Below, in pieces: positions 28,212 through 48,103 of a stretch of 64,000 nt of DNA. The notes beneath the pieces are model-generated. The model did no database searches. It had not been told where the DNA came from and saw nothing but the letters and a program-made list of their open reading frames with translations. Positions within the stretch are counted from its first letter, which is position 1. Each line of letters opens with the position of its first letter. Location of the stretch: the NCBI RefSeq assembly GCF_032062105.1, contig NW_026925197.1:1-64000 (forward strand), written 5' to 3'. This DNA is from Saccostrea cucullata (taxonomy: Eukaryota). Both the position numbers and the translations under genes were made by a program.

Positions 28212-28677
28212 TGTGACGGGGGTCCTCCCTGTCACTGGCACTGGTAATGAATGACTATAGTTTTTATTTACATTGTTTATTTACATATTTACAACACAGA
28301 TATATATATAAGAAATCACAATTGTTCACAATACAAAAACACATCCACACTCGTTGACTTTCAGACTTGTTCTCCTCTCTCTCACGCGCGTTCCCAGGGC
28401 ATGGCCATACCAAATCTCTTTTTCCCCACTTTCTCACACAAATCAATCTAATGCTCACTTTCATCTCTCAGAACTCTATCATGCACAATAAACAACGATA
28501 ACAGAAATGACAAATAAACAAATTATAAATCCATGCTTGTCCACTCGCTTTCTTTCTAACTAACTCAAATTACACTCTTGGGAAACAGGGCTACAACGCC
28601 TGCGCCGCGCACCTGCAACCTATCACTCACTCATTTACAATTAATTAACAATTAGTTCGGGCGATTACTCTGTGACA
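28212..28677 (-). repeat. Gypsy 3' LTR
   Basis: Matches 33582-34047; one visible difference (28250 A vs 33620 G). Confidence 0.97.
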
Positions 28678-28690
28678 TACCTCCCCTCTT
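28678..28690 (-). other. Polypurine tract
   Basis: AAGAGGGGAGGTA on the minus strand, abutting the 3' LTR. Confidence 0.85.
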
Positions 28691-28960
28691 AAGTGTGGCG
28701 TCCCGACACACTAATAAAATTACATGTAGTAGACTGATAATGACAATTTGATATCGCTTACAAGAATCACACATTCATAGATAAAGAGACATTACTTACA
28801 CACAGAAATAACAAAATAGTTTAACATGCATACACATTTCATGTTTTACCTTTTTTTTCTTAGATTTTTGCGTTTTATCTTAACATTTTTTTTTCGAAAC
28901 AAATGTTCATTTTATATATACATTATTTACACAACCTACGTATATATACACTTCAATTAT

Positions 28961-31900
28961 TTATTTCTTTGACTTAATAAAATCTTGTTCAATCCTAAAG
29001 TCTTTGATTTCATTTTCACCTAACCACTGGGTGTGTCCGTTCTGAAACTGCACAAAATAACGTTTCTCTAACCGCTTGGAGTCGTTTCTTGACCGCATCA
29101 TATCTAATACTTTGACAATGGGACCGTTGTCATCGGCCGTCTCGTCTTCGTATTCAACGTCCTCGTCCGGGATATAGTCGTGATCAGGGCGGTCATTAGG
29201 ATCAAGATACGGCTTCATCCTGTTAGCATGCGCTGTCAAAGTTTTCGATTTGTGATCAGGGTCCTGTAGTCTGTATGTAACATTAGATAATCGCTCGATG
29301 ATCTCGTATGGTCCGTGCCAATTGTGGGTAAGTTTAGGAGAGAGTCCAGGTTTAGTCGTTGGAGTAAATAACCAGATTTTGTCACCTTTAGTATAATGAG
29401 TCTCTTTCGCTGCACGGTCATGATGTTCCTTCTGGTTTTGTTGACATTTTTGTAAGTTTTCTTTGACAAGCGTGTAGGCCTCTTGAAGGCGGACTTTTGC
29501 CTCTTCCTTATAGTCGTCTGCTACAGCGTAAGAAAATGTTGGCGGACAGAGCACGGCTTCAACGGGTAGAACAGGATCTCGCAAGTGCATTAGGAAGAAG
29601 GGTGACTCTTTTGTAGTCTCATGGATGGCGGTCCTATATGCAAACAGTATGTATGGTATAAAGGTGTCCCAGTCACGCTGATGTCCTGACACATACATTG
29701 ACAACATTGTTGTGAGTGTTCCATTGAAGCGCTCCACTAGGCCATTGGTCTCCGGGTGGTAGGCAGTAGTAAAAGTTTTCCTGGTATTTGTTAATTTGCA
29801 TATTTCCTTTATTAGGTTTGATCTAAAGTTCTTACCATTATCTGATAGCAGCTCTCTAGGCGCTCCGTGACGACACACTATTTCCTCTACAAAAAGTCGC
29901 GCAGTCGTTTCTGCATCTGCATTGTTTACGGCAAATACTTCAGGCCATCGAGTTAGGTAGTCACTGAACACAATAATGTACTTATTGGACTTGTAGGTTG
30001 GCGGGAACGGTCCAAGGACATCTACAGCTACTCTGTCGAATGGTCCATTAACTGCCGGTAGCGGGTTCAATGGGCACTTTGGTCTGTTTTTCGGTGATTT
30101 CTTGGTAGCACAGTCTACGCATGATCTACACCAAAACTCTACATCTGAATACATTCCCTTCCAATGAAATCTCTCTTGTACTTTGTCATACGTTTTCTGG
30201 AAGGAGAGATGTCCGGCTGTCAGGTCGTCGTGACAGGCATACATGACTTCGTCTATCAGGCTCCTTGGAACAGCTATTTGGCGTCTAATAGCTTGACGTC
30301 GTCTATGAGATCCAGGCTGCCAAAGATGATATAGCAGACCATTGTGTCCGAGTTCATAATCACCAGATAATATTACTGTCTCACGGGCCTTTGAAGATAA
30401 TTCAGGCAACTCTCCCTTCTCTAAATAATTAATGATAGCGGCTAGGAGAGGGTCATTTTTCTGACGGTCGCGGATGTCCTGATATGACCTTTTTGGTATC
30501 ACATCTGCGTCTGCCTTAGCACAGGTGGCTGCTATAGGGGATTCGGCAGGAATTCGAGATAAGGCGTCTGCGTTTTGATGAACCTTTCCCGGTCGATGTT
30601 TAATGGTTATGTCATACTCTTGAAGAGTTAATGACCATCGCGCTAGGCGTCCTGCTGGATTCTTAATGTCCATAAGCCACCGTAATGGGTTGTGGTCAGT
30701 TATCACAGTAAATTTCCGGCCGAATAGATAGTGTCTAAAGTATTTCACACTCCACACAATGGCTAATGCCTCTTTTTCGATAACTGCATAGTTCTGTTCA
30801 TTTGATTTTAGACTCCTACTCGCGTACGCTATTGTCCGTTCACCATCTGGACCTTCTTGGGCTAATACGGCACCTACACCAGTGTCACATGCATCCGTGT
30901 ACAGGATAAACGGAAGCGAGAAATCCGGATACCTAAGAATGGGAAAGCTGGTCAAAGCTGATTTGAAGAATTCAAACGCACTTTTGCAGTTATTGTCCCA
31001 AATGAATTCGACACCTTTCCTTAAGAGCTTGTGTAAGGGAGCAGCCTTACTTGCAAAATCCTTTACAAACTTACGGTAGTAAGAGATGAGTCCCAGAAAG
31101 CTTCTAAGTTCGCTCACATTTGTTGGCCTCGGAAAGTTGTGAATTGACTTTACTTTCTCCGTGTCAGGTGATATTCCGTCAGCTGAGACTTTGTGTCCAA
31201 GGAACGTGACCTCCGTTTTTCCGAAGTAACACTTCTTCGCTTTTAACTTTAATCCTGAATTTTCGAATCGTTTTAGCACTTCCTCAAGTCTTTTGACATG
31301 GTCGGAAATAGTTTCCGAGAAGACAATTACGTCATCTATATACACAAGACACGTGTTCCACAGTAATCCTGAAAGCACAGAGTCCATAAGTCTCTGGAAT
31401 GTTGGCGCACTGTTGCACAGTCCAAATGGCATATAATTATATTCATAATGCCCTCCAAAGAAGGAAAACGCGGTCTTTTCTCTGTCATTTTCCTTAATAG
31501 GTACTTGGTGGTATCCTTGACACAAATCTAAGACACTGAAGTACTTGGACTTATTAAGTGCATCCAGCATTTCGTCGATCCTAGGGAGAGGGTAAACGTC
31601 CTTTTTGGTGACTTCATTTATTTTACGAAAATCGATGCACATGCGAACTTTGCCATCTTTCTTCGGCACCAAAACAATTGGGGCGGAGTACGGACTCTTA
31701 GACGGTCGCACAATTCCATTAGCGCACATTGTTTCTATCTGGGATTCCAGTAACATCCGCTGGCTGTGAGGAATCCTATGAGGCCTCAAGTGAATAGGTT
31801 TACTGTCCCCTGTGTCTATAGAATGTTCAACCAAATCTGTCTTCCCTAATTCATTATCACTGAAAGCAAACACTTTTCTATACTTATCTAATACCTTAGT

Positions 31901-32587
31901 AATAGACTTGCGTTCCGTTTCACCTAAATCACCTGATACATAGAAATCATCTATACCTTGCTCACCAGACTCAACGCTCTCATTTATCTCAATCCCATTC
32001 AAGTTCTTGTAATTACATGCATCTTGCACACTCTCGCTAGTCGAACTTGCATCAGAAATAAATGAGATACATTCATCATTTATATATACAGAATCATTTG
32101 CAACATCAATATAGCATGCACAGTCCTTCAAAATGTCCAAACCTAAAATACAATCATACGGGAATTCACGAGCAACAAATGCATTATATACAACATCGGT
32201 TTGTTCACCAATTCTTAACGTAAAGTCACACTTCCCAACAATATCGACACGGTTGCCCGTTGCCGATGTAACACTAACTCCTCCAGCCGGCACCATACCA
32301 CTCTGGCTTGCGAAAGCTTCATTTATAATCGTGACACTAGATCCGGTGTCGACCAACATCGCAGCACATTTTTCATTCACATATCCTACAATTTTGGCGG
32401 TACAAAATTTAGGATTTAATTGACAAGAAACAATATTTTCACATACATTTTTCACATTTTCAACACTTTTTTCACTACTTTCGGAAGAATAATCCTCTTC
32501 TCTTTTACGCAACCGGCTGTCTCTAGGAGGGTATTTTAGATCCTCTAGCCCTTTACCTCCACACAAAAGGGCGGACTTTAGTTTTCC
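28961..32587 (-). CDS. pol: Gypsy pol (protease, RT, RNase H, integrase, chromodomain-like tail), entered by -1 frameshift
   Basis: LVDTGS, YIDD, TDACDTG, HHCC, D..D..E core, GPY motif; 1201-aa uninterrupted ORF with no ATG start. Confidence 0.95.
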   Translation of the reverse strand, partial: GKLKSALLCGGKGLEDLKYPPRDSRLRKREEDYSSESSEKSVENVKNVCENIVSCQLNPKFCTAKIVGYVNEKCAAMLVDTGSSVTIINEAFASQSGMVPAGGVSVTSATGNRVDIVGKCDFTLRIGEQTDVVYNAFVAREFPYDCILGLDILKDCACYIDVANDSVYINDECISFISDASSTSESVQDACNYKNLNGIEINESVESGEQGIDDFYVSGDLGETERKSITKVLDKYRKVFAFSDNELGKTDLVEHSIDTGDSKPIHLRPHRIPHSQRMLLESQIETMCANGIVRPSKSPYSAPIVLVPKKDGKVRMCIDFRKINEVTKKDVYPLPRIDEMLDALNKSKYFSVLDLCQGYHQVPIKENDREKTAFSFFGGHYEYNYMPFGLCNSAPTFQRLMDSVLSGLLWNTCLVYIDDVIVFSETISDHVKRLEEVLKRFENSGLKLKAKKCYFGKTEVTFLGHKVSADGISPDTEKVKSIHNFPRPTNVSELRSFLGLISYYRKFVKDFASKAAPLHKLLRKGVEFIWDNNCKSAFEFFKSALTSFPILRYPDFSLPFILYTDACDTGVGAVLAQEGPDGERTIAYASRSLKSNEQNYAVIEKEALAIVWSVKYFRHYLFGRKFTVITDHNPLRWLMDIKNPAGRLARWSLTLQEYDITIKHRPGKVHQNADALSRIPAESPIAATCAKADADVIPKRSYQDIRDRQKNDPLLAAIINYLEKGELPELSSKARETVILSGDYELGHNGLLYHLWQPGSHRRRQAIRRQIAVPRSLIDEVMYACHDDLTAGHLSFQKTYDKVQERFHWKGMYSDVEFWCRSCVDCATKKSPKNRPKCPLNPLPAVNGPFDRVAVDVLGPFPPTYKSNKYIIVFSDYLTRWPEVFAVNNADAETTARLFVEEIVCRHGAPRELLSDNGKNFRSNLIKEICKLTNTRKTFTTAYHPETNGLVERFNGTLTTMLSMYVSGHQRDWDTFIPYILFAYRTAIHETTKESPFFLMHLRDPVLPVEAVLCPPTFSYAVADDYKEEAKVRLQEAYTLVKENLQKCQQNQKEHHDRAAKETHYTKGDKIWLFTPTTKPGLSPKLTHNWHGPYEIIERLSNVTYRLQDPDHKSKTLTAHANRMKPYLDPNDRPDHDYIPDEDVEYEDETADDNGPIVKVLDMMRSRNDSKRLEKRYFVQFQNGHTQWLGENEIKDFRIEQDFIKSKK

Positions 32588-33493
32588 GAATTGGCGCTTC
32601 TTTGTTGCTCATTGCAACGAACTGCTATGTGTCCTACTCTACGACATTTGTTGCAGATTGGTCTCCCGTCCGTAGTCCTAAGATTTCGGTCTGGTCGGGG
32701 GCGGAATCCGAATTCTCGGCCTCTTCCTCCTCGGCTTCCTCCACGGCTTTGTCCTCGAGACGGAGGAACAAATTGCTGTTTCGATGCGAATCTACCGATT
32801 TCAGTTGCCATCACTGACACCTTGGCGGTCAGGTCTGCGAGTGACTTTTCCAGTTCTTCCGTTCTCGTAAGGAGCGTAAGACATAGATGCCACAGTTCCT
32901 CTGGCCATTGGGGCATCTGCCAGGAAGTTGTTACATTCTTCCCTCTTCGCATGCCTGAAAGCTTCCTCAAACGTCTTAGGGTTAGAAAGTAACACATACC
33001 TCTTGATTTCAGGCCGTAATCCTTGGACGAAATGCTCTTTAGTGAGGGTTTCCTTTTGCCTCCCAGGCATGTCCATGTAGGCACGCGTAGCAAGCTTCGT
33101 TATGTTCGACGCATAATCTTCTACGGTTAGCATCTCTGCCTGTTTGTATCCGAACAAGTTGGAATAATACAGAGATTGCAGTTCTTTAGGAATAAATCTT
33201 TCCCGCAGAGCGTCACAAACGGAACAGTAGTCATCTTTCACATCGTCGTCTAAAGATTCATAATAATCTGCAGCTTGATCTCGGAGGAATGCAGGTATCG
33301 TTATGCATTTTCTTGGTTCGGTCCAGAAATTAGCTCTGGATATTCGATCAAAGTTCTTAATCCATGAATCAAAGTCTTCGTCGAGTTTCCCGTAGAATGG
33401 GGTAGGCTTAATCAGGTTGGACGGCTGTCTAACTTCAGGCACAGCTTCGGGAATAATATCCTCAATTGGCTCCTGTCTCTTCTTCCGTGGCAT
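32578..33493 (-). CDS. gag: Gypsy gag, split into two frames near 32850-32880
   Basis: Capsid-like region (PFYG..EDFDSW, FVQGLRPEIK) in 33493-32801; CCHC knuckle CNKCRRVGHIAVRC in the 33093-32578 frame. Confidence 0.85.
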
Positions 33494-33554
33494 CTTTACA
33501 GTATTTGACCAAAAATTAATTTTCCAAAGTACATGTCGAAATATTTAAGATGAT

Positions 33555-33576
33555 CTCATCCGACCGCTGGCCACCA
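33555..33576 (-). other. Primer binding site, tRNA-Leu-like
   Basis: TGGTGGCCAGCGGTCGGAT 5 nt inside the 5' LTR; resembles TGGTGGCAGCGGTGGGAT. Confidence 0.6.
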
Positions 33577-33581
33577 TAATA

Positions 33582-34047
33582 TGTGACGGGGGTCCTCCCT
33601 GTCACTGGCACTGGTAATGGATGACTATAGTTTTTATTTACATTGTTTATTTACATATTTACAACACAGATATATATATAAGAAATCACAATTGTTCACA
33701 ATACAAAAACACATCCACACTCGTTGACTTTCAGACTTGTTCTCCTCTCTCTCACGCGCGTTCCCAGGGCATGGCCATACCAAATCTCTTTTTCCCCACT
33801 TTCTCACACAAATCAATCTAATGCTCACTTTCATCTCTCAGAACTCTATCATGCACAATAAACAACGATAACAGAAATGACAAATAAACAAATTATAAAT
33901 CCATGCTTGTCCACTCGCTTTCTTTCTAACTAACTCAAATTACACTCTTGGGAAACAGGGCTACAACGCCTGCGCCGCGCACCTGCAACCTATCACTCAC
34001 TCATTTACAATTAATTAACAATTAGTTCGGGCGATTACTCTGTGACA
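33582..34047 (-). repeat. Gypsy 5' LTR
   Basis: Direct repeat of 28212-28677. Confidence 0.97.
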
Positions 34048-34880: not shown

Positions 34881-35505
34881 ATTATCACAGACTCCACACA
34901 AAAACAACAGTGAATTTAATGTTTCCTAATTATTTATTTCTTAAGTTTGGCATTTTAATGGCCACGGCTGGTTCAAATCAATTTATGAAAAATACACGTG
35001 TACAGTGGGTGCCGACCCAATTGGTTTTGGCACACCTCCAATAAAAGCAAGCAAACAAACAATCAATCAATGAATCAACAATCAATCAATCAATCAATAT
35101 TAACTGTACACATGTCAAAGTTTTACAGGATAAGACTGACGTTTAGCTTCAAAGTTCCTGCAGTTGCGTCAGCCTTATGCATCAATCAATATGCATCAAT
35201 CAGTGTTCAATACGATCAATTAATGTTCAAGTCAATCAATGAATGTTCAATTCGATCAATAATATTCAATTAGATCAATCAATGTTCAAACAATATTCAA
35301 CAAATCAATATTCAGTTCATTCAGATCAATGTATTGTATGCTCATGTTAAGCCAATCAATATTCAAATAAATCAATCAATGTTCAATGTAAATTATATAC
35401 AAGTTCCTTGTATTCCATTCCAGAATTATCCACGCAATCATGTTCGAGTTGCGCCCTGTTAACAGCGGCGCAAGTCAAGATGATATGTGTTAAGCTAAAT
35501 TCGCC
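34881..35505 (-). repeat. Ngaro terminal direct repeat B2
   Basis: Matches 41152-41777 with about six small differences; (CAAT)-rich; begins with ATT on the + strand. Confidence 0.9.
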
Positions 35506-36024
35506 TTTCAGCCATTGGCTCTTATCAAGGTTATTACGTAGAATACAATACTGGGTGCAGATAGGGTCAGCCGTGACGATGCTGCTGTGAAGCAGATTGA
35601 TGATTATCATAAACAACAACTACGCCCAGTTTACAGCGGCGAGTGTCATTATGATTGGATAAGTGAAACTCCTCCTCCTGGTCCTTGGCACTATCCATCA
35701 CTCTGGCATGTAACTCTGTCGAAAAGGGGGGAAGTCGGACATGGCTAGGCAACGTCTTAGAATGAGTCGTGGCTCCAAAACTTCAGTATCTTTCCTGAAA
35801 GAAAAAACTCAACACACAGAAAACGAATTCAAGAAATTAGGGATTTGGAAGGGAGGGCTTTTGAAAATATTTCCCCAATTAAGCAGTACTTAAATTAAGA
35901 CGTGTATCTTTGAGGGTGGTTGATAACTGACTGCTCCTATGCTCTGCGCGTATATTGCGCGCGCATTATACCGCGTGGTGCGCTGTGATATATGGATTTA
36001 TATCGTATTCACTGCATAAATCCG

Positions 36025-36089
36025 ATTCTACCAAATCAACAATGCTGAGGAATACCATGAGATGTGACGTAGCCATCACGTGATTCAGT
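36025..36089 (+). repeat. DIRS left inverted terminal repeat
   Basis: ATTCTACCAAATCAAC...CATCACGTGATTCAGT, inverse of 41040-41106. Confidence 0.92.
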
Positions 36090-36303
36090 GCGTAGTAAAC
36101 AGTGATTCGAGCAAGCCGCCATTCTAGTCGCAGAGAAAATTTTTAGCGTTATTTCCTATTTTGATTACGAATTTAGAGGATTTTTGTGTTTTTACTTAAG
36201 TTTTATCCTGGACATCGTGTTTACAATTGGAGAAGTCCTTCAACGTGGTCGCAACGTGACTTTGTTTAGGGTCATAAGCCCTGACCCAAATCCTTTGTGA
36301 ACA

Positions 36304-37752
36304 ATGGCCAATCAGGCCAAGCGACCTTCTCTGAATAATTCAGTAGAGGCTGTCTTCGACAGTGTGGTCGCGGGCATTTCAGCCCAGCAGAACAGTGGTT
36401 TTCAAACCTTAACTGTTGTTCCTGAAGCAATTTCTGAGGAAATTGTAGAATCGTTTGACTCGATTGATTACATAAGATCGGCTGGAGATACTCAGGTTTC
36501 AAGGGGCGGAGCGTCGAAAACCGCCAAAACAATGAGTGACAGACCGAGCACAGAACACATATCCCAGAATTCCCAAACAAAAACAAACAACATGGCCGAC
36601 GAAGACGATCTTTATTGGAAAAAATTATTTTTCCAGAACCAGAAAATGTTGCAGGAATTTATGCAGTCAAAAAGATTGGCGGAGACAGAACCTCCAGTGC
36701 CAAACAAATTACAGAAGGCAAGTTTTACACATGCCTTAGTTTTAAAAATTCAAGCAATGATAAATTTATGATTATGTTTATCATATTGGAACATTCCGAT
36801 AGTCGGTTCCCAGTAGCTTTGCATTAAGCCTAAACGGCTTACATATCAAGTTAATCTATTTAACAAGAAAATTTTTTTGTTTTTTATTATAGACAAATCA
36901 TCAAACAGAAACAGCTGATTCTGATGAGGCTGACGATTTCGATGTTCTTATCAATGAAGCTAAAGAAAAACAGAGTGAAGACGAAGATGACAAGAGTTTT
37001 TTAGGATCCCTAGAAGATTTTATGTTAAATGATGACAGAACTGGACCGAATATTAGTGAAGAACTTTCTAAGGTCCTCAATAAATCATTTCAAAACAGAC
37101 CATCAGAAGAAAAGGCTAAGAAACTGTGTGAAAAATATTTTCGGCCTAAGAACTGTGACAACATGACTGTTCCAAAATGTAATCCAGAAGTCTGGCCATC
37201 ATTGCGCAAAAAATCTCAGTCATGCGATTATAAACTACAGAAAACACAATCTGTTATTCTGAAAGCTATGGTGCCAACTTGCACTCTTCTAGACAAATTG
37301 CTTGTCAGCAAGAAAACAACAAAGACCGTGTCATCAAAAGACACTAACGAAATGCTAGACTTAGCGAGCTGGCATTTACTGATATCTCTCACAAACGAAG
37401 GCACCTAATTCGACCAGAACTTAAGCCGATGTACAAACCCCTGTGTAATGATACAAATCAAGTGACAAGTTTCTTGTTTGGAGATAGCATGGACGAGCAG
37501 ATAAAGAAAATAGATGCTTCAAGAAAAGTGGGCAAAAAGTTGAATGAAAATCAGCATGACACGTCAACATCAAGAAATGCAAATCATGGAAAAGGATCTG
37601 GTGGAAACCACTTCAGAGGTTATTCACAATATGGTGGACCAAAACATACCTATGGCAGATTCAATTACAACTACAAGGAAACAAACAACAACAACAGCAA
37701 CCCTTTTTTAGGGAGGAGCAAGGGCAGGAAACCAGTGCCGAACAAAAAGTAG
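36304..37752 (+). pseudogene. DIRS gag-like ORF1 (exons 36304-36717 and 36893-37752; frameshift near 37365)
   Basis: RPKNC...VPKCNPEVW, D.KLQK.Q, KRR.LIRPEL..MYK.LC, FLFGD motifs; a GC-AG intron joins the frames. Confidence 0.75.
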
Positions 37753-39911
37753 AAAAATCCCTGCCCGCAGCTGAAACAACCAGATTAGATCATTGTGTAA
37801 GTAGTTATAGTAGTGAAAGAAAATTCACAGAAAATGCTTTGTTTGAACTTCCAGTTGATGTGAACAATTTAATAAATGTTCCTGAAAATTTTCAAGGAGG
37901 AAAGATAAGGGAATTTTATGAAAACTGGAAATCTATAACAACTGACAAGTGGATATTAGACACTGTGTTAGGGTATGAAATTGAATTTGATACACTGCCC
38001 CAACAAAATAGACCTAAACCCGAACTAAAATTTAATGACGAAGAAAGTCAACTTGTGAATGAAGAAATTCTGAAATTAGAACAGAAAAATGTCATACAAA
38101 AAGTAGATAGATGTGAGAATGACTTTATTTCTAACATTTTTCTTAGACCAAAAAAGGATGGTTCAAACAGACTCATTTTCAATGTGAAAGAACTAAATGA
38201 AGATGTTCAGTATCACCATTTTAAAATGGACACTTTTAAATCTGCAGTACACATGATGAAGAAAGATTGTTGGTTTGCATCTGTTGATTTAAAAGATGCA
38301 TATTATTCCGTTAATGTAAATAAAAATTTTCGTTAATTCCTACGCTTTGTATGGGAGGGTCAGTGCTATGAATTCACTGCATTGCCCATGGGATTAACAA
38401 GTAGTCCAAGGGTCTTCACCAAGCTTCTGAAACCTGTGTTTTCAGTGTTACACAAACATGGATTTTTAAGTTTGATTTACATAGATGACACTTTTTTGCA
38501 AAGAGAAAGTTTTGAAGAATGTCAAGAAAATGTCCTTAAAACGGTCTCATTATTAGACAATTTGGGGTTTACCATTCACCCGGAGAAGTCAGTATTAATA
38601 CCAAAACAAAGTATATCATTCCTAGGATTTGTGCTGAATTCTCAAAACATGACAATGTCTTTAACACCAGAAAAAGCAAAAGACATTATTCAAGATTGTG
38701 AGAAATTACTTCGTAAGCATGAAATTTCTATCCGCGATTTTTCCAGAGTCATTGGGAAATTTGTGGCTGCTGAACCAGCAATACCATATGCACCATTGCA
38801 TATAAAAATTCTAGAAATAGAAAAGAACAGACGTCTTCAAGAAAATAAGGGAAATTTTGATGGGAAATTCATCTTATCAAATTGTGCTAAAAAAGAACTT
38901 ACCTGGTGGATTGATAATGCAGAAAAGTGTAAGAGTTATCAGCCATTGTCCACTCCCCAAATTATTATTCAAACAGACAGTTCCAAACTAGGTTGGGGTG
39001 GTTTGGTTCCCAATACAAATAAGAAAACAGGAGGACATTGGTCTTATATTGAGCAAAGATCACACATTAATGTGTTAGAACTAAAAGCAGCTTTTCTAAC
39101 CTTACAATCATTTTTTAGTGCATGTACTGATAAACACATTGCTATTCAAATGGATAGTATGGTAGCAGTATCATACATTAATAAAATGGGGGGAAGAAAA
39201 GAAGAACTGAACAATTTGTGTAAAGATATGTGGGAGTGGTGCATTTCTAAAAACATTTGGATAAGTGCTTCACATGTACCTGGTGTGCAAAATGTCCAAG
39301 CCGATAAACTCTCACGAAAACTCAATGATGATTTGGAATGGATGCTCAATAAAGATATATTTCTTGTCATTAAGCAGAAGTACTCTTTAGGGAGAGCAAT
39401 AGACCTGTTTGCTTCAAGAATAAACAAACAATTACCAAAATATGTTTCATATTTACCTGATCCAATGGCAATAGCTGTTGATGCTTTTTCCATTTCTTGG
39501 AGTGATCATTTGATGTATTTGTTTCCTCCTTTCAGTATTCTACAACAAGTACTACAGAAGATAGAGATGGATCTAGCAGAAGTAGTGTTGATAGCACCCC
39601 TGTTTTCAAATCAGTGCTGGTTCCCGAAGTTACTGAAACTGGTGGCAGGTCAGTGTTACATCATTCCAAAGAAGACGGATACATTAATTATGCCGACAGA
39701 TGTTGCGCGTCTCCATCCTCTGAGCAAGATGAGGCTGGGGTGTTTCCGATTATCAGGAAACTCCTCCAGGACAAAAACTTATCAACAGAAGTTATTGACA
39801 CTATTACCTCGTCCTGGCGAAAATCAACAAGAATTCAATATTGGACGTATCTCAAGCAATGGTTGTTATTTTGTGAACGAATCCAAACTGATCCATTTAC
39901 ACCCTCTATAA
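37704..39911 (+). pseudogene. DIRS RT - RNase H - adenine methyltransferase-like ORF with a premature TAA at 38334-38336
   Basis: DLKDAYY, LPMGL..SPRVFTK, YIDD, TDSS..GWG, HINVLEL, AD.LSR, IDLFAS, VDAF..SW, YLFPPF. Confidence 0.9.
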
Positions 39912-40720
39912 ATGTGGTGTTGGAATTTTTACAATCACTAGCAAATAGGAACTTAGGTTACAGTGCTATTAATACAGCTAAATCAGCTTTGTCAAGTTTT
40001 TTGTCTTTAGGTGATGTTAATCTTGGTTCTAATCCATTAGTTCAAAGATTTATGAGAGGAACTTTTGTCAAAAAACCAGTATTTCATAAAAATATACATA
40101 TTTGGGATGTAAATATTGTTTTTCAATATCTGAGAAAGATGGAACCTTTGGAATGTCTTTCCCTTAAAGAATTAACCTTAAAATGTGTGATGTTATTGTC
40201 TTTGTTGACAGGTCAGAGAGGACAAACTCTTCATTTGCTAATGGTAGATGATATATTGTTTGAAAGCAATGTTGTAAAAATTTGTTACAACAGTTTGTTA
40301 AAGACTACTAGACCTTCTTTTCATTTAAATGATGTAGTTATTGAACCTTTTTTAGAAGACAAAACATTATGTTTAGTTAGAATTCTTCAAACTTATATAT
40401 TGAGAACTCAAACCATCAGAGAAGACAACAAACTTTTTGTAAGAACTATGAAACCACACAAGGGTGTAACAAGAGACACAATAAGTAATTGGATCAAATG
40501 TGTTATGATCGCAGCTGAAATAAATACAAAAGTTTTTAAACCACATTCTACCCGAGCAGCAGCGACAAGTGCCGCACAAAAATGTGGAGTGCCTATAACA
40601 GACATTTTGAGAAATGCAGGGTGGACAAATGCACAGACTTTTCAAAAATTTTACAAAAGAAACATTGTTGCCAAAGAGCAGAAGAGTTTTTCGCCAAGTA
40701 TGTTATCAAATGTCAAGTAA
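39614..40720 (+). CDS. DIRS tyrosine recombinase
   Basis: LTGQRGQTL, HSTRAAATS, AGW, TFQKFY catalytic motifs; overlaps the MT region as in DIRS1. Confidence 0.92.
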   Translation: MLVPEVTETGGRSVLHHSKEDGYINYADRCCASPSSEQDEAGVFPIIRKLLQDKNLSTEVIDTITSSWRKSTRIQYWTYLKQWLLFCERIQTDPFTPSINVVLEFLQSLANRNLGYSAINTAKSALSSFLSLGDVNLGSNPLVQRFMRGTFVKKPVFHKNIHIWDVNIVFQYLRKMEPLECLSLKELTLKCVMLLSLLTGQRGQTLHLLMVDDILFESNVVKICYNSLLKTTRPSFHLNDVVIEPFLEDKTLCLVRILQTYILRTQTIREDNKLFVRTMKPHKGVTRDTISNWIKCVMIAAEINTKVFKPHSTRAAATSAAQKCGVPITDILRNAGWTNAQTFQKFYKRNIVAKEQKSFSPSMLSNVK

Positions 40721-40856
40721 TGTGCATTATCTTGACTGTTTGTATATATGTTGTTTCAACAATTGCAATTTTATTAAATGGACTGATTTTCTTTTATGGA
40801 ATGGTTTTTCTTTTTAATTATCCAAAAATTTCTTAAATATGAACACATTCTCTAAA

Positions 40857-40977
40857 ATCTCATGGTATTCCTCAGCATTGCTGATTTGGTAGAATTGAAA
40901 AATTAAACGAATATTACTTGTAAGATGAAGTTTGATTATAATTCTACCAAATCAACTTAATGCTGAGGAATAACATG
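40857..40977 (+). repeat. DIRS internal complementary region (ICR)
   Basis: Complement of the element 5' start fused via AAT (40893-40895) to the complement of the 3' end. Confidence 0.93.
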
Positions 40978-41039
40978 CCCGTCCCTCCCTCCCAGGGGAG
41001 TATGTATGGGCATGTATTCATATTTAATTTGCTTTAAAA

Positions 41040-41154
41040 ACTGAATCACGTGATGGCTACGTCACATCTCATGTTATTCCTCAGCATTAAGTTGATTTGG
41101 TAGAATTATAATCAAACTTCATCTTACAAGTAATATTCGTTTAATTTTTCAATT
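41040..41154 (+). repeat. DIRS right ITR plus 3' extension
   Basis: Inverse of the left ITR to 41106; extension is complementary to the ICR. Confidence 0.92.
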
Positions 41155-41777
41155 ATCACAGACTCCACACAAAAACAACAGTGAATTTAACGTTTCCTAA
41201 TTAATTATTTATTTCTTAAGTTTGGCATTTTAATGGCCACGGCTGGTTCAAATCAATTTATGAAAAATACACGTGTACAATGGGTGCCGACCCAATTGGT
41301 TTTTGGCACACCTCCAATAAAAGCAAGCAAACAAACAATCAATCAATGAATCAACAATCAATCAATCAATATTAACTGTACACATGTCAAAGTTTTACAG
41401 GATAAGACTGACGTTTAGCTTCAAAGTTCCTGCAGTTGCGTCAGCCTTATGCATCAATCAATATGCATCAATCAGTGTTCAATACGATCAATTAATGTTC
41501 AAGTCAATCAATGAATGTTCAATTCGATCAATAATATTCAATTAGATCAATCAATGTTCAAACAATATTCAACAAATCAATATTCAGTTCATTCAGATCA
41601 ATGTATTGTATGCTCATGTTAAGCCAATCAATAATCAAATAAATCAATCAATGTTCAATGTAAATTATATACAAGTTCCTTGTATTCCATTCCAGAATTA
41701 TCCACGCAATCATGTTCGAGTTGCGCCCTGTTAACAGCGGCGCAAGTCAAGATGATATGTGTTAAGCTAAATTCGCC
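41152..41777 (-). repeat. Ngaro internal direct repeat B1
   Basis: Direct copy of 34881-35505. Confidence 0.9.
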
Positions 41778-41876
41778 AAACGTGCATAGGTACTCATTAA
41801 CTATTCACGCCGCCACCAATGTGGGGGTAGCTTAACACCCTACTCAAATATCCAGCCGTGACCACACCGATACATA

Positions 41877-42463
41877 TCATAAGGAATACACGTTATTTTG
41901 GGAGTTTATAATAGTTGAGAGTCCACTTTTAAAATTTTCAAGGAACAGCTTATTACCAGGCGTAGAGAGGTGTACCCCGTCGGGGCGGTAATTGTCGGGA
42001 CTATGATGGATATTTGACTGCTTAATGTACCCTCCATTGTAATGATATAGAATATGTTTTGCAATTGCGCTATTCACTCGCGCCCTACTTTTTTCGATAT
42101 CGGGTCTCCCTTCACGTTTCCAGGCAATCCTTGTTATCATTTGCGACCAAATTATCTTAGTGTGCGGAAATATCATTTGAATTTTTTTCAAATCACGTTT
42201 TATTGCAACTATTAATTCAATGGTCTTCATACGGCCAAGGTCGTTTGCTCCACAATGTAATACCAAGAAATTTGGTGGATCAATGAACGTAAGTAAATGT
42301 TTTAAAAGTTTAAAGACACCATTCCAGCGCATTCCTCGTCGACCTTGCCACAATATTTTATGCCTGTCGAAATTAAGGTCAGATGTGAAACCTAATTCGA
42401 TCGCAGCTAGAAAGGCCCATGAAATTAATGATGACCCGGCGATCCAAATATCTTGATAATTTT
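41877..42463 (-). CDS. SGNH/GDSL hydrolase of the Ngaro element (no own ATG; probably spliced)
   Basis: IWIAGSS (block I), GRRGMRW (II), HCGANDL (III), DGVHL (V); splice acceptor TTTTTTCGTTGCAG ending at 42464. Confidence 0.85.
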
Positions 42464-42502
42464 CTGCAACGAAAAAAGGGATTAGAGTGTCAAGCTGTCA
42501 TT

Positions 42503-43489
42503 CTATTCGACTGCCGGGATCCTAATATATAGGCGATAACAATCTGACTTCCACCTTCCTAACGTTTTAATTGTTTCGTCATCAACGCCCTGAGAATGAA
42601 AGTATGTAGCTGCTCCAATTCTAAAGGAGTGTGATTTATAGTTGCAGCTAGATAAACTGAGACGCGCGAGGCATTTACTTAAGACGGAATTAAATTGATA
42701 TCTAGTTAGCGGTTTACCGCCGAAATGACAAAATAATTGACCAGAGATACTTGGTCTTTGTTGTAAATACTTGCGCATTAGTAATAGCGGACAATAAGGA
42801 CCGCTGATAGCGGGAATAATTAATTGTGTTCCTTTGCCGTACTGGTCAGTCTTTGACCTCCTAAGGTTAACTTCTATGTAGGATGAAGGCTCATTCATAA
42901 CGAGATCGTTATTAAGTAATGCTGCGTTTGAATTTCTCGAGCCTACTGTAAATTCCCCGACTCGAAGAAAGCCAAAAAAGGCCAAGGAAAACGCCGCAGA
43001 AAAGAGACTCGCCTCATAACTCGATGTGCACACAACTGGTAATGTATTAATTAATTTATGGAGGAGCTGAATCGTTATTGATAAACGGGAGTCTTTGGAG
43101 TGTCTCTCTCTCTTCATTCCTTCTACCATTTTCCGAACAATAAAATGTGAAGTATAGTCTGGTAAATCTAAGGTAGAAATCTTAATCTTATGTGATATAG
43201 CTGCTAGATATGTTTTGACAGTGCTCACAGCGTAACCTTTGACGGAAAGGAAAGCAACGAAGTTTGTCAATTCCTCAAGCGATGGAGGCCAAGAGTTACG
43301 GAGATGGAACTCGGACCTGAACTTAGAAAATAAATCGAGGCCGTTGTTGTATGCCGCTTTAGTGTTTTCTGAAGTGGCGATGTCGATTAATCTAACGGTT
43401 TCACTCCTGATATCAGTGAGTGAAATACCAGCGGAATAGGAGTTGACTTTACATCTGCTTTTGGTGCTAGTTCCTGGAATTTGGTCCAC
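42503..43489 (-). CDS. Ngaro tyrosine recombinase
   Basis: AFFGFLRVGEF, SKTDQ, HSFRIGAAT, LGRWKSDCYRLYIR. Confidence 0.95.
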   Translation of the reverse strand: MDQIPGTSTKSRCKVNSYSAGISLTDIRSETVRLIDIATSENTKAAYNNGLDLFSKFRSEFHLRNSWPPSLEELTNFVAFLSVKGYAVSTVKTYLAAISHKIKISTLDLPDYTSHFIVRKMVEGMKRERHSKDSRLSITIQLLHKLINTLPVVCTSSYEASLFSAAFSLAFFGFLRVGEFTVGSRNSNAALLNNDLVMNEPSSYIEVNLRRSKTDQYGKGTQLIIPAISGPYCPLLLMRKYLQQRPSISGQLFCHFGGKPLTRYQFNSVLSKCLARLSLSSCNYKSHSFRIGAATYFHSQGVDDETIKTLGRWKSDCYRLYIRIPAVE

Positions 43490-45882
43490 TGTCGACGAGA
43501 CAAAGCATCAGCAATATTATTACATAAACCAGGGATATGTTCTGCTTTAAATCTAAAATTATATGTCATTGATAGGTATACTAAATAGCGAACAAAGTGC
43601 ATTACTCTTTTAGATTTTGACGTCTGTTTGTTCAAGATGTATACAAGGGCTGCGTTATCTACTCTTAATATAACATTTTTTGATCTGAAGTATTCTCCCC
43701 ACAATGTCATTGCCAGAACTATTGGAACAAGCTCTAAAAAGGTAACATCTCTCAAAATTTCCGTATCCCCCCATGTTGAGGGCCAAGCGAAATGGGCCCA
43801 TTTACCGTTTAAATATGCCCCGCACCCTAGGTTCTTACCCCCAGCACTGTCTGTGTACAATTGAAGAATATCACTACTTAACCAATCAACATCATTTAAA
43901 TAGCATATGCCATTTAAGTGGTTCAAAAAATTGAGCCACATAAGCAAATCGTCTTTGATGGATTTCGTTATGCGGATAAAATGATGCTGCCTTTGTACGC
44001 CAATCATCGCGTCGTAAAACTGGCGATTAAAGGCGCGGGAAGATCGCACTGCTTTGGTGCAAAAGTTTAATTGGCCAACGAGAGATTGCATCTCCTTCGA
44101 AGTGACTTTAGATTTATTTGCCATTTCTGTCAACGAGATCTTAAGTTTGATTAGTTTTTTGTTGGGAATACGGACTTGCCCGAGACATGTGTCAATTTCC
44201 AAACCCAGGTAAGTTAGTTTTGTGACGGGTCCGACAGTTTTATCGATGGCAAGAGGAATTCCCAGTGCTGTACATAACTCCCCAAATTGCCTCATGAGTC
44301 TTGAGCAATCGTCGGATTTCGCTGAACCAGCAAACAGGAAGTCGTCAAGATAGTGCGTAACATGTGAGCAAGCAGATTGCGACCTGACGGTCCATTCCAA
44401 AAATGACGCGAATTTCTCAAATGTAGCGCATGATATAGAACAGCCGAATGGCAAGCATTTGTCAATGTAGTATTTACCCTCAAATTTGAAGCCAAGTAAA
44501 CAAAAATCATCTGGTTGAATTGGTAAAAGTCTAAATGCACTTTTTATGTCCATTTTGCCCAATAAAGCGCCTTTTCCGAGCTGACTTATCATTTCAATAG
44601 CGCTATCGAATGATGAGTAGTGTACAGATGAAAGTTCTTTATCAATGAAGTCGTTCACGCTATTGTTATGTGGATATGACAGATGAGTAATTAAACGCCA
44701 CCCCCCGCTAGATTTTGGCACGACGCCTATTGGAGACACCCTTAGATTCGAAAGTGGTATATTGTAGAAAGGGCCGGCCATGCGACCCATATCAATTTCA
44801 CTTTGCAGTATATTCTGGATTTCGTTCTGATGCTGGTTTGCCGAAATTAAATTTTTACACTCCAAGTGAGTGCGTTGGCCTATATAGTGAAGGGGAAATC
44901 CATATTTAAACCCATTTAATAACTCATTGCCCACATCATGGTTTGAATATGACTGTATCAATATTGAGAGTTGATTAATATCTACTGGAGAATGACCGAG
45001 GTGCTTTAGCCCCCTGGGGGTAGCGAAATCTATAGTTTGGGGTTTGCCCTGGGCGTGGTTGCTGATTTGGTGATTGAAAACGAAAAGGCTGCTTTTGCAT
45101 GGGGAAGCGAGGGGCTGGGCTACGAGGACAAGTGGACATTGCATTGGGTGGTCAGATGCACACCTGATACAACGGTGTGCGTAAATACAATAGGGTTTAC
45201 TACATGCACCCTTGTAGTTAAAATCAAAGCACATGCCTTTTGACGGTTCAACTGTTTTTTGGGGAATGGTAACCGGAGAAGTTACGTATAACATCCAAAG
45301 TTCATTGTCGATTTGCCCCCATTCCATAGAACTATTTCTTGCCTTCTTAAGCCTAAATTGCTCGTCATACAATTTCCAGCCGGTGGGAGATCTATAGGAA
45401 CCCAGTCTAATCGTGTGCATATATTTAAGTAAGCCCAGTGATTGATCGGGGTGAGCTTCGACGTAAACGCTAGTAAATACAAGGAATGCGTCTGTCCATT
45501 TCCCGATATCGGTGATTTGTCTACTTTTCCCTTTTTGCAAAACCAGTTCCCCATCTACTAGGTTTATTTTATTTTTCTTGTCCCTTTCTTCCGTCGTTTC
45601 CAACAGGACGCCCAGATCTAAATACTCCCCATTTTGTATTTTTTCGCGTGTTTTTGAAGAGATCGTGCAACCCAATGCATCAGTTATACTAACAATAAGC
45701 GTAGGTAAGTAGTCAGACTTACCTATTGAGCTAACAGGCTCGTTAATGCCCTCTTCCGTGCTATGGATAGTACTATTGTCATTTTCCCCCTCTTTTTGGT
45801 GCGATTTGGTTGCAGCTTTTTCTTTTCTGGTGGACTTTTTTGCAGGAGTAACCACAGTTGCGGATGACTTGCGCTAAGGCAT
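43387..45882 (-). pseudogene. Ngaro gag + RT-RNase H, fused in this copy by a 5-nt duplication; nonsense codon at codon 3
   Basis: ATG CCT TAG CGC AAG at 45882; YDEQFR gag motif, zinc finger CFDFN..C..C..H.C..C...H; DIKSAFR, LPFG, YLDDF, TDS, LEL, ADALSR. Confidence 0.9.
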
Positions 45883-47267
45883 CTCTCTAAAGAAAGTATT
45901 ATTGATAAATTGTGAATTTGATATTAAATTCGGTTCGCAAGTATCGAAAATCATCCCGAGAATGCCGCCTCCGGTTGGAAGCGGCGAATTCCAAGTTTTC
46001 GTAATGGCACCGGTTCTTACGTTTTCCTGGCATGTAAAATATCCAAATCGTAAAATAGCCTGGAAAACGTCAGATATTTCGGCTACAATCTTCCAGATGC
46101 ATTAACTGTCAGTCCTTAGTACTTTTACTTTTAACACACATTCGATATTGTTATCTAGATGGAAGGGGGTTTTGATGTGTTGCGGTATGAATTGAAATAT
46201 ATGCTTTATTTGCTAGTTCTATAGGAATATACATGTTTGACAGATTGAACTATTGCAGATTGTCACGGTAGCCAAACAATGTAAAAGTCATTGTATCATG
46301 GCTGCGGTGTTTTTCCTTTGAAGTTAAGTGTACAATAACTGGAGATACACCGATGGGCATATCCAGAAAAAAAACTGTGCCGTGTATATGGGCGGAGCCA
46401 GCAAAAACTGTGCCGTGTAAATAAATTATTGAACACCAAGGCGATTTCATCATTTTGAATTACGTGTATATTGAAACTAAATTACAGAATGAATGTGCTT
46501 TGTAATATACAAATGCAAAAATTCTGCAAGCGAAATAAAAGTCTTTCACATAAATTACAGTACGTATATATCCCAAACTACGAAATGATTTTACGGAGCT
46601 CTTCAAATATTCAATCCACAGCAACGCGAAATCAAATTCTTGACATGAATTCCACACAGAAATATATTAAAATATCCCACCTATTGTTATATAGGCTTAA
46701 GCTGTACTGCATCCACAGATGAAGAGTAATTGACTCTGACACAGCGTTTTCGTGAATATGACAGCTCTAGAATATGTCAACGGGTATCCTTTTTCTTTAT
46801 TTTCGAATAACACTTGAATTTATCTTCTTCAACTTCGATTTTTTTCTTTTTTGATATCCAAAGGTTTTCTTGAGAATTCCATTAACAATCCAGGGGCGAA
46901 TCCAGCAATTTTTGAAAGGGGGGAGGCTCCAGGTCGGTGGCCCCAGCACTCATGCACAGAATCACACCGGCCACTTTAAGTCCGTAGCTACATTTTAAAA
47001 AAAGGGGGGGCCTCGAAAAAAAAGTTGACAAGGAAAAAACCCTTTGCAACACACTCTAAAATCCAGGGGGGGGGGGGATGTGCTGGGATGCTGCAATCCG
47101 ACGTCCTTTCTCATGAACACACGCACATAAAATGTTTATTAAAAATACTGACAGAAAGGAGAGATTATCCATGCGGTCACCTGACAAAAACTACATTTTC
47201 TATTGGTGTAATTTAAAATCATGCTGAAAATCTGTGACATGACGTTTGATTAGCCATGATACAAGAA

Positions 47268-47382
47268 AGTTATTGAATATTTATTATGGTGTATCCTGAT
47301 TTATTTGGACGAAGGGCTTCGCACTCGTCACCGCCCTTCGTCCAAATTACTCAGGATACACCATAATAAATATACAATAACT
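47268..47382. repeat. Palindromic hairpin element (~50-bp arms)
   Basis: AGTTATTG...GGACGAAGGGC / GCCCTTCGTCC...CAATAACT. Confidence 0.85.
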
Positions 47383-47526
47383 ATTACTTTAAAAAAAGAA
47401 AAGTGTTTCTTTCAATTGTAATGAAACTACATTGTATATTTCACTTCCTGATATGTTTTTATACTATTCACCTCTACAATGTGATCGGAACTTTTTATTT
47501 TTCGGTGGTTTGCAAATTATAAATAT

Positions 47527-47695
47527 ATATTATTATAACTGTAACTTGATCCGAAGGGTCATATCACGTCAAGTTGACAGGCGCAGATCATCAGATCTAA
47601 CGATACGCGAAGCGTCGAGTTTGATCTGATGATCCGCGCCTGTCAACGAGACGTGATACGGCTCTTCGGCTCAAGTTACTGTTATAATGATGATT
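47527..47695. repeat. Palindromic hairpin element (~80-bp arms)
   Basis: TTATAACTGTAACTTGA...CAGATC / GATCTG...TCAAGTTACTGTTATAA with central CGCGAAGCG. Confidence 0.8.
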
Positions 47696-48103
47696 ATTAT
47701 ATACCCCCTTATAACTGGCTAAATATATTAAAAGAAACCTTTAGAGATCAATTTATAACATTATTCCACTAAACAAAGCATAATAACAAGGGACTTTTTA
47801 ACGCGCAAGAAAAATAACGTCATATTTCTGCGTACTACGTCATCAGTTTCAGAGAGTGGTGATATGGATTCAGAAAACCACAGTGTGGTGATCCGGAAAG
47901 TCGGATCACGACGTCACGTGATTGCGTTAAATCTACAGTAAAATTGAGTGATACGCATCAGGTATATAATAAAACCCGAGATCAAAGTAGCTTTGGCAGT
48001 AGCTCTTGCCACCCCTACTAATGTGTTCGGAACCTTTTATTTTTCGGTGTTCTGCAAATTATAAAGCCCGATGAGTTCTGAGTAGCTCTGGCAGTGGCTC
48101 TGG

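What the first reader, a model, noticed from the sequence alone, without database searches (positions are those of the whole stretch)
35983..41161. Removing the DIRS restores a hairpin spanning the Ngaro junction
CTGTGATATATGGATTTAT (35983-36001) is almost the reverse complement of the rejoined ATAAATCCG-ATT-ATCACAG (36016-36024 + 41152-41161; reverse complement CTGTGATAATCGGATTTAT), with a 14-nt spacer. One arm exists only if the DIRS is excised precisely, which independently supports a precise, TSD-less insertion. Inference: the inverted repeat may be the YR binding site or a folded single-stranded substrate (integron attC-like), with the crossover inside one arm.
Basis: partly seen in the sequence, partly recalled or inferred. 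Interest (0 to 1): 0.7.

Follow-up and report, generated by a model that had tools for sequence, protein, structure and literature searches.

The report
Folded integration site of Ngaro retrotransposons
Where the two ends of this animal jumping gene meet there is a conserved fold-back sequence, and the first host base beside each insertion tracks the far arm of that fold, so the element's recombinase likely pastes it in from a folded single DNA strand, as bacterial integron cassettes and cholera phage do; a second jumping gene later landed on exactly that spot, likely by chance.

Summary
Real. The rejoined junction exists naturally on 11 other contigs, so the DIRS insertion is clean, with ATT at both ends. 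The fold-back is a general Ngaro feature: 19 families of this genome and three junction types from another assembly fold an outer stem ending in ATAA/TTAT, a 2-4-nt bubble, an inner stem and a variable loop, with compensatory changes. Insertions break at one bond, ATAA|, where stem meets bubble. New here: the first host base after the element is either the element's own T or the complement of the base facing it in the hairpin in 119 of 128 insertions (facing A: 30/30 T; facing T: 24 A, 22 T, 1 C; facing G: 13 C, 29 T, 8 others; family permutation p=6e-5). A duplex site would not predict this. Best reading: a folded coding strand is the recombinase substrate, one strand is exchanged, replication or repair finishes (inferred, no biochemistry). 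The DIRS hit the same base step once; no second case in 48 other DIRS sites. The scan noted this hairpin before in other genomes; I found it in no paper searched.

The parts
34881..45900 (-). Ngaro retrotransposon, 5'-truncated (A1 missing), interrupted by a DIRS at its B1|A2 junction
   Evidence: Self-BLAST and Pfam; 98-99% identical to the complete copy L346; starts at base 170 of that copy, just behind A1
43387..45873 (-). Ngaro ORF with RT and RNase H
   Evidence: PF00078, PF17917
42503..43507 (-). Ngaro tyrosine recombinase, open frame; R182, K219, H293, R296, W319, Y327 invariant in 12 family YRs
   Evidence: closest solved structure Cre, E 1e-8; assignment of these residues as catalytic is recalled
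41877..42497 (-). SGNH/GDSL hydrolase ORF
   Evidence: PF13472, below curated cut-off
41153..41777 (-). Repeat B1; ends in CTGTGATAA, the 5' arm of the outer stem (41153-41161)
   Evidence: 98% identical to B2; B ends stop at ATAA
35859..36025 (-). Repeat A2 (about 166 bp); begins at the crossover with T
36016..36025 (-). Bubble (+1 T, +2 C) and 5' arm of the inner stem
36002..36015 (-). Variable loop of the hairpin
35992..36001 (-). 3' arm of the inner stem and facing side of the bubble; 35992 is the base that faces +1 (T on the coding strand)
35983..35991 (-). 3' arm of the outer stem; 35991 is a private substitution that breaks the pair next to the crossover, invariant in 19 of 19 families
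35506..35858 (-). Unique spacer between A2 and B2
   Evidence: present in L339, L340, L341, L343, L346; no tblastx match to the rest of the element
34882..35505 (-). Repeat B2, precise 3' end ATAA followed by host T, inside a host repeat
36025..41154 (+). DIRS retrotransposon (both ATT included); RT frame broken by a stop near 38336; YR 39506-40720
40857..40977 (+). DIRS internal complementary region, complement of right end + left end with a single ATT
   Evidence: inverted repeats I1 and I5

Best explanation
The Ngaro B|A junction is predicted to fold, on the coding strand, into a two-stem hairpin that likely serves as the element's attachment site: the recombinase likely cuts at ATAA|T, swaps one strand with a host site of the form TAH|, and replication or repair would finish the insertion. 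Shown by sequence: the conserved two-stem design, the single crossover bond, the lack of spacer homology with targets, and the link between the first host base and the hairpin's facing base. Inferred: that this link is the base-pair check of the strand swap (the host base pairs with the facing base, or the element's T pairs with the host), that the coding strand is the one cut (tyrosine-recombinase polarity, recalled), that the fold forms in single-stranded cDNA or as an extruded cruciform, and the way the intermediate is resolved. The DIRS in the window is an ordinary ATT-core insertion that destroyed this copy's site.
For: Design in 19 of 19 intact families: pairs -1 to -4 invariant (ATAA/TTAT), -5 paired 19/19 with two Watson-Crick types; in the 15 families with 6/6 spacers +2 is Watson-Crick in 0, +4 in 12 (6 G-C, 6 C-G), +6 to +8 in 15. 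Extra unpaired bases of the outer stem lie on the 5' arm in 13 families, on the 3' arm in 1, equal in 5. Arm-swap permutations 0/100000. Single bond: 50 left flanks read T 48, A 49, then A38/T8/C4/G0; 0 of 58 right flanks carry the 6-nt spacer; 39 of 40 A-repeat hits run to the junction. First host base by facing base: A 30/30 T; T 24 A, 22 T, 1 C; G 13 C, 29 T, 6 A, 2 G; C 1 T; family-weighted permutation p=6e-5 (20 families), 1.6e-4 with sister families merged (14 lineages), 1 of 210 orderings for the 7 large families. The rule was seen in 59 flanks, then held in 38 of 42 new ones and 6 of 6 new ones of family L109, predicted beforehand. The facing base changes at least 6 times on the RT+YR tree. 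Where target homologues exist, the base is the host's own in 12 of 15. Same design in another assembly at 33-36% YR identity.
Against: No biochemistry. 9 of 128 flanks break the rule, 8 of them in facing-G families. The second prediction was met only weakly: family L104 gave 10 T and 1 C, and that C belongs to a copy whose own junction has a facing A. Positions +2 to +4 show no pairing signal across families (p 0.08-0.6). In the other assembly 3 of 5 flanks fit. Family L139/L141 folds no better than shuffles (z +0.1). The two strands fold about equally well, so energy does not pick the strand. One flank (L196) has C where 13 of 16 homologues have A. Reverse transcription first gives the opposite strand (DIRS-1 cDNA is antisense, PMC7192593), so a further step must supply the coding strand.
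Confidence: 0.77

Rival explanations
1. Duplex site with a second, inverted recombinase-binding site: the fold-back only reflects one protein binding the same sequence twice, and each family's YR has its own preference for the first target base.
For: Each half reads arm-6 nt-arm (ATAA N6 WTAW), like dif in PMC3089051; energies show no strand bias; protein preference could link site 2 and targets.
Against: Spacer positions +4 to +6 covary between the halves while +2 never pairs; one-sided bulges shift the spacing between the halves; no spacer homology or mixed junctions; the accepted sets (T only; A or T; C or T) are those that base pairing gives; sister families L109 and L412 differ in facing base and in target base.
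Confidence: 0.1
2. The fold-back acts before integration: as a short ICR-like splint that joins the B2 end to the A1 start during cDNA completion, or as an RNA hairpin for priming or template switch; integration then uses a duplex circle.
For: DIRS-1 needs its ICR, and a 3' RNA hairpin was proposed as primer (PMC7192593, passages). The internal arm is complementary to both ends. Several copies are cut near the end of A1 (window, L129, L145, L344).
Against: B1|A2 already supplies a template for the junction; a splint needs no fixed bubble; it does not explain why the host's own first base follows the facing base. It can be true in addition to the best explanation.
Confidence: 0.1
3. On the DIRS only: it did not land by chance but was drawn to the Ngaro site (extruded hairpin, or a mixed recombinase complex between the two intermediates).
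For: The DIRS crossover maps to AA|TT (one left flank with T at -1, one right flank with A at +1), the same base step as the Ngaro crossover on the other strand. The Ngaro offers 419 ATT and 84 ATTA sites.
Against: One event. 0 of 8 other sites of this DIRS family and 0 of 40 loci of other DIRS families touch a Ngaro junction. ATT is the usual core (13 of 14 modelled DIRS) and every Ngaro junction with T at +1 contains it. The finding was picked from very many windows for looking odd.
Confidence: 0.3

Closest known systems
Ngaro retrotransposons with SGNH hydrolase (DIRS order; e.g. Xenopus DIRS-53_XT, PMC9210276)
   Same: A1-ORFs-B1-A2-B2 split repeats, RT/RH, YR, SGNH.
   Different: The papers seen describe no hairpin at B|A and no single-strand integration; a unique spacer lies between A2 and B2 here.
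CTXphi attP(+) with XerCD (PMC3089051, first third read; PMC3442271, abstract start only)
   Same: Two inverted arm-spacer-arm sites pair into a hairpin; one pair of strands is exchanged; target choice is set by Watson-Crick or wobble pairs with the folded site.
   Different: Host recombinases and one fixed 28-bp target there; here the element's own YR, a 30-40-nt fold, dispersed TAH targets, and a check that seems limited to one base.
Integron attC sites (PMC5027507, PMC4792948, passages)
   Same: Outer box with the crossover, unpaired spacer, inner box, variable terminal loop, little sequence conservation, extrahelical bases, crossover after AA.
   Different: attC keeps one paired base (C of AAC) after the cut and its extrahelical bases lie by the L box on the arm opposite the cut; here the bubble starts at the cut and the bulges lie in the outer stem on the cut arm. 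No I2 helix was tested; the YR profile matches Cre, not IntI, in the PDB.
DIRS1-like elements and their ICR (PMC7192593)
   Same: The inserted element is a typical member; an internal complement of the joined ends is the shared theme; single-stranded cDNA intermediates were shown for DIRS-1.
   Different: The ICR pairs perfectly over about 120 nt with no bubble, and the published model integrates a double-stranded circle through a trinucleotide.

Membership tests
Ngaro | Split direct repeats A1-ORFs-B1-A2-B2 | tested here: met
   Complete in family copy L346; the window copy lacks A1
Ngaro | RT/RNase H and YR, no DDE integrase or protease | tested here: met
   Pfam
Ngaro | No methyltransferase domain; SGNH ORF after YR in some | tested here: met
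   No MT hit, PF13472 hit
Ngaro | RT/YR phylogeny inside the Ngaro clade | not tested
   The tree holds no named reference elements
DIRS1-like (inserted element) | Inverted terminal repeats plus ICR complementary to both ends | tested here: met
DIRS1-like (inserted element) | Trinucleotide at circle junction and both ends | tested here: met
   ATT
DIRS1-like (inserted element) | Methyltransferase-like domain after RNase H | tested here: inconclusive
   No Pfam hit; DLFAS and FPPF stretches present (motif meaning recalled)
attC/CTX-type folded recombination site (works like) | Imperfect hairpin: outer box, unpaired spacer, inner box, variable loop, conserved by structure | tested here: met
attC/CTX-type folded recombination site (works like) | Crossover at one bond at the edge of the outer box, no second exchange | tested here: met
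   Junction scars; indirect
attC/CTX-type folded recombination site (works like) | Target choice by pairing with the folded site | tested here: met
   First base only; +2 to +4 no signal
attC/CTX-type folded recombination site (works like) | Recombinase binds and cuts the folded strand, not the duplex | not testable with these tools
   Needs biochemistry
Integron attC proper | RYYYAAC/GTTRRRY boxes, extrahelical bases opposite the cut arm, IntI integrase | tested here: not met
   ATAA/TTAT boxes, bulges on the cut arm; so not an attC, only like one

The most novel reading that the evidence does not exclude
Ngaro retrotransposons are a eukaryotic single-strand integration system: their YR recombines a self-folded coding strand with almost any TAH site in the chromosome, and one base in the hairpin's bubble programs which target base is accepted, so target choice can be read from, and changed in, the DNA fold alone.
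Probability: 0.7. Interest if true: 0.85.

Novelty: new variant of a known kind. Interest (0 to 1): 0.72.

Why it matters
How YR retrotransposons insert is an open question: the standing model is a double-stranded circle, yet DIRS-1 makes mostly linear single-stranded cDNA and the YR's specificity is untested (PMC7192593, passages). A defined 60-nt folded site with a predicted cut bond, strand and one-base target rule makes the question testable with oligonucleotides. It would extend integron/CTX-style chemistry to animal chromosomes, explain insertion without target duplication at three-base targets, and give a structural marker for finding Ngaro ends.

Tried and rejected
Chance fold-back: rejected by shuffles, arm swaps and covariation. 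DIRS targeting Ngaro junctions as a rule: no second case in 8 + 40 sites. Pairing beyond the first base: no signal at +2 to +4. Strand choice from folding energy: undecided. First base written by the hairpin instead of chosen from the host: 12 of 15 testable flanks keep the host base, 2 unclear, 1 differs, so mostly rejected. Antisense strand as substrate: disfavoured because -1 accepts T and C but never G in 50 flanks, the reverse of what pairing would allow (reasoning). Empty allele of the window site: not found; the two flanks belong to different high-copy repeats, so A1 and one original flank are gone. Clusters L125 and L145 show no hairpin: L125 lacks the A start, L145 is a B end against duplicated host DNA; L092 has most of the hairpin deleted. 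The L004 row was on the wrong strand and was redone. 75 of 80 metagenome loci had no usable split repeats; the motif scan gave L309 as one further candidate, with 3 weak sense hits and 4 antisense hits as noise. Poulter and Butler 2015 is not held.
Full report
Observation. The two arms and the 14-nt spacer are at the stated places. The host element is a Ngaro on the minus strand (RT/RH 43387-45873, YR 42503-43507, SGNH 41877-42497) with B1 41153-41777, A2 35859-36025, a unique spacer and B2; A1 is missing. The DIRS (36025-41154) has inverted ends and an ICR that spells its circle junction with one ATT. Among 30 loci fetched for the A repeat, 11 contigs hold the uninterrupted junction.

The fold is a Ngaro feature. 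A YR search of the genome gave 120 matches, 100 outside the window's family; I fetched 60 of them. 47 had split repeats, 46 a locatable junction, falling into 20 clusters. 18 clusters fold a stem across the junction, 17 of them at z -2.9 to -8.0 and one (L139/L141) at +0.1; the other 2 are not intact junctions. With the window's family this gives 19 families, mean junction identity about 0.53. On the coding strand all read: outer stem ending ATAA paired to TTAT, a bubble of 2-4 nt, an inner stem of 7-11 bp, a variable loop. Cognate arms beat swapped arms in all 100000 permutations for each stem. In register, -1 to -4 are invariant, +2 is never Watson-Crick (0 of 15 families with 6/6 spacers), +4 is G-C in 6 and C-G in 6, +6 to +8 pair in 15 of 15; surplus bulges lie on the 5' arm in 13 families and on the 3' arm in 1 (four of these families are close kin). 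Five elements of another assembly (three junction types, YR 33-36% identical) show the same design ending in TTAA, and L309 is a further candidate.

The scars. B ends stop after ATAA and A starts begin at the next base. 50 distinct left flanks (of 57) read T, A, then A/T/C but never G; none of 58 distinct right flanks (of 67) carries the element's 6-nt spacer. This is one crossover bond with no spacer homology, which fits one strand exchange and not the two staggered exchanges of a classical YR reaction (established for attC and CTX: PMC4792948 passages, PMC3089051 first third).

The first host base follows the hairpin. In a duplex site the base opposite +1 is always A. In the fold it is the base before TTAT, which differs by family. 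In 59 first flanks every C lay in a facing-G family and 20 of 23 A in facing-T families. New searches gave 42 more flanks, 38 fitting, among them 20 of 20 T in facing-A family L117 (two of these share four bases with the spacer and may be cut junctions). Two predictions were noted first: L109 gave 6 of 6 T; L104 gave 10 T and 1 C, inside the allowed set but with no C excess, and the C came from a copy with a facing A. A sister family of L109 with a facing T gave 4 A, 5 T, 1 C (read by eye). Total: 119 of 128 fit; 37 of 46 non-T bases are the complement of the facing base; p=6e-5 by family, 1.6e-4 by lineage. Dropped before the count: 8 flanks with a mutated element end, 1 of unclear subfamily; identical flanks were merged and one wrongly merged flank (L126) restored. 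Positions +2 to +4 show nothing. Of 100 flanks, 15 had homologues in the DNA at hand; 12 keep the host base, 2 are unclear, 1 differs. The simplest reading is the pairing check known from CTX: a swap succeeds if the incoming host base pairs with the facing base or the element's T pairs with the host.

Mechanism. Shown: design, bond, target rule. Inferred: the YR binds the two stems, the subunit on the outer stem cuts the coding strand after ATAA and the host after TAH, the freed ends swap with a one-base check helped by the bubble, and replication or repair resolves the junction. Polarity (3' adduct on the arm side) is recalled. How the coding strand becomes single is unknown: displacement synthesis or cruciform extrusion. 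L145, with a precise 3' end, a missing A1 and a 72-bp copy of the target, looks like a one-ended event finished by repair (one case).

The DIRS. Its crossover maps to AA|TT on two single-copy clues, the same base step as the Ngaro cut but on the other strand. It is the only case: 0 of 8 other family sites and 0 of 40 loci of other DIRS families lie at a Ngaro junction; 13 of 14 modelled DIRS use ATT. With 419 ATT sites in the Ngaro the hit is striking, but one selected event cannot separate chance from attraction.

What is known. Ngaro structure: PMC9210276, PMC4157794, PMC8547959, PMC3783388, PMC6681497 (passages only; none of the passages mention a junction hairpin). DIRS-1 single-stranded cDNA and the duplex-circle model: PMC7192593 (passages). 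attC: PMC5027507, PMC4792948 (passages). CTX: PMC3089051 (first third), PMC3442271 (listing). Searches for Ngaro or DIRS with hairpin, integron, attC or folded single strand gave no paper making this claim (listings only; two were empty). The founding papers, the 2015 review and Repbase were not seen, nor any supplement, so priority is open. Earlier notes of this scan report the same hairpin in other genomes; I formed the reading before seeing them, they are not independent evidence, and a search of them for the target-base rule found nothing. Other notes call this genome an oyster; I did not test that.

Verdict. Real, conserved, probably the folded attachment site of a known element family. 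New variant of a known kind; interest 0.72.

Noticed in passing
L145 sense 1181-1252 and 6070-6141 (G000:C7016): Ngaro with precise 3' end, A1 missing, and a 72-bp duplication of host DNA that starts at the crossover: a possible one-ended integration finished by repair.
   Followed up: partly
window 45900; L129, L145, L344: Several copies are cut within about 40 bases of the end of A1; only L145 shows a duplicated flank. May mark the transcript start or a failed restoration of A1.
   Followed up: partly
L088, L103, L107, L108, L114, L124, L131, L138, L143: A1-ORFs-B copies without A2 and B2, as expected from B1 x B2 recombination; solo A-spacer-B copies also occur (C15337).
   Followed up: partly
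G000:C8370, C9378 (L014, L015, L022, L023): Non-autonomous Ngaro made of A-B-A-spacer-B with no ORFs, junction hairpin intact.
   Followed up: no
L323 and L327: Two Ngaro copies sit in a shared short repeat on opposite strands, with crossovers 6 bases apart, the stagger of a YR core site.
   Followed up: no
L092 junction; L211 junction: Short deletions that remove most of the hairpin or its 3' arm.
   Followed up: no
window 28212-34047: Young Gypsy-type LTR element, 466-bp LTRs 99.8% identical, open 1215-aa pol frame.
   Followed up: no
window 47268-47382 and 47522-47698: Two long imperfect hairpins side by side in non-coding DNA.
   Followed up: no
window 20766-21740 and 25465-26049: Two related MFS transporter coding stretches (68% identical DNA).
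   Followed up: no
DIRS YR search: A group of YR matches in open frames of about 1060 aa, far longer than DIRS YR frames; perhaps another YR element type.
   Followed up: no
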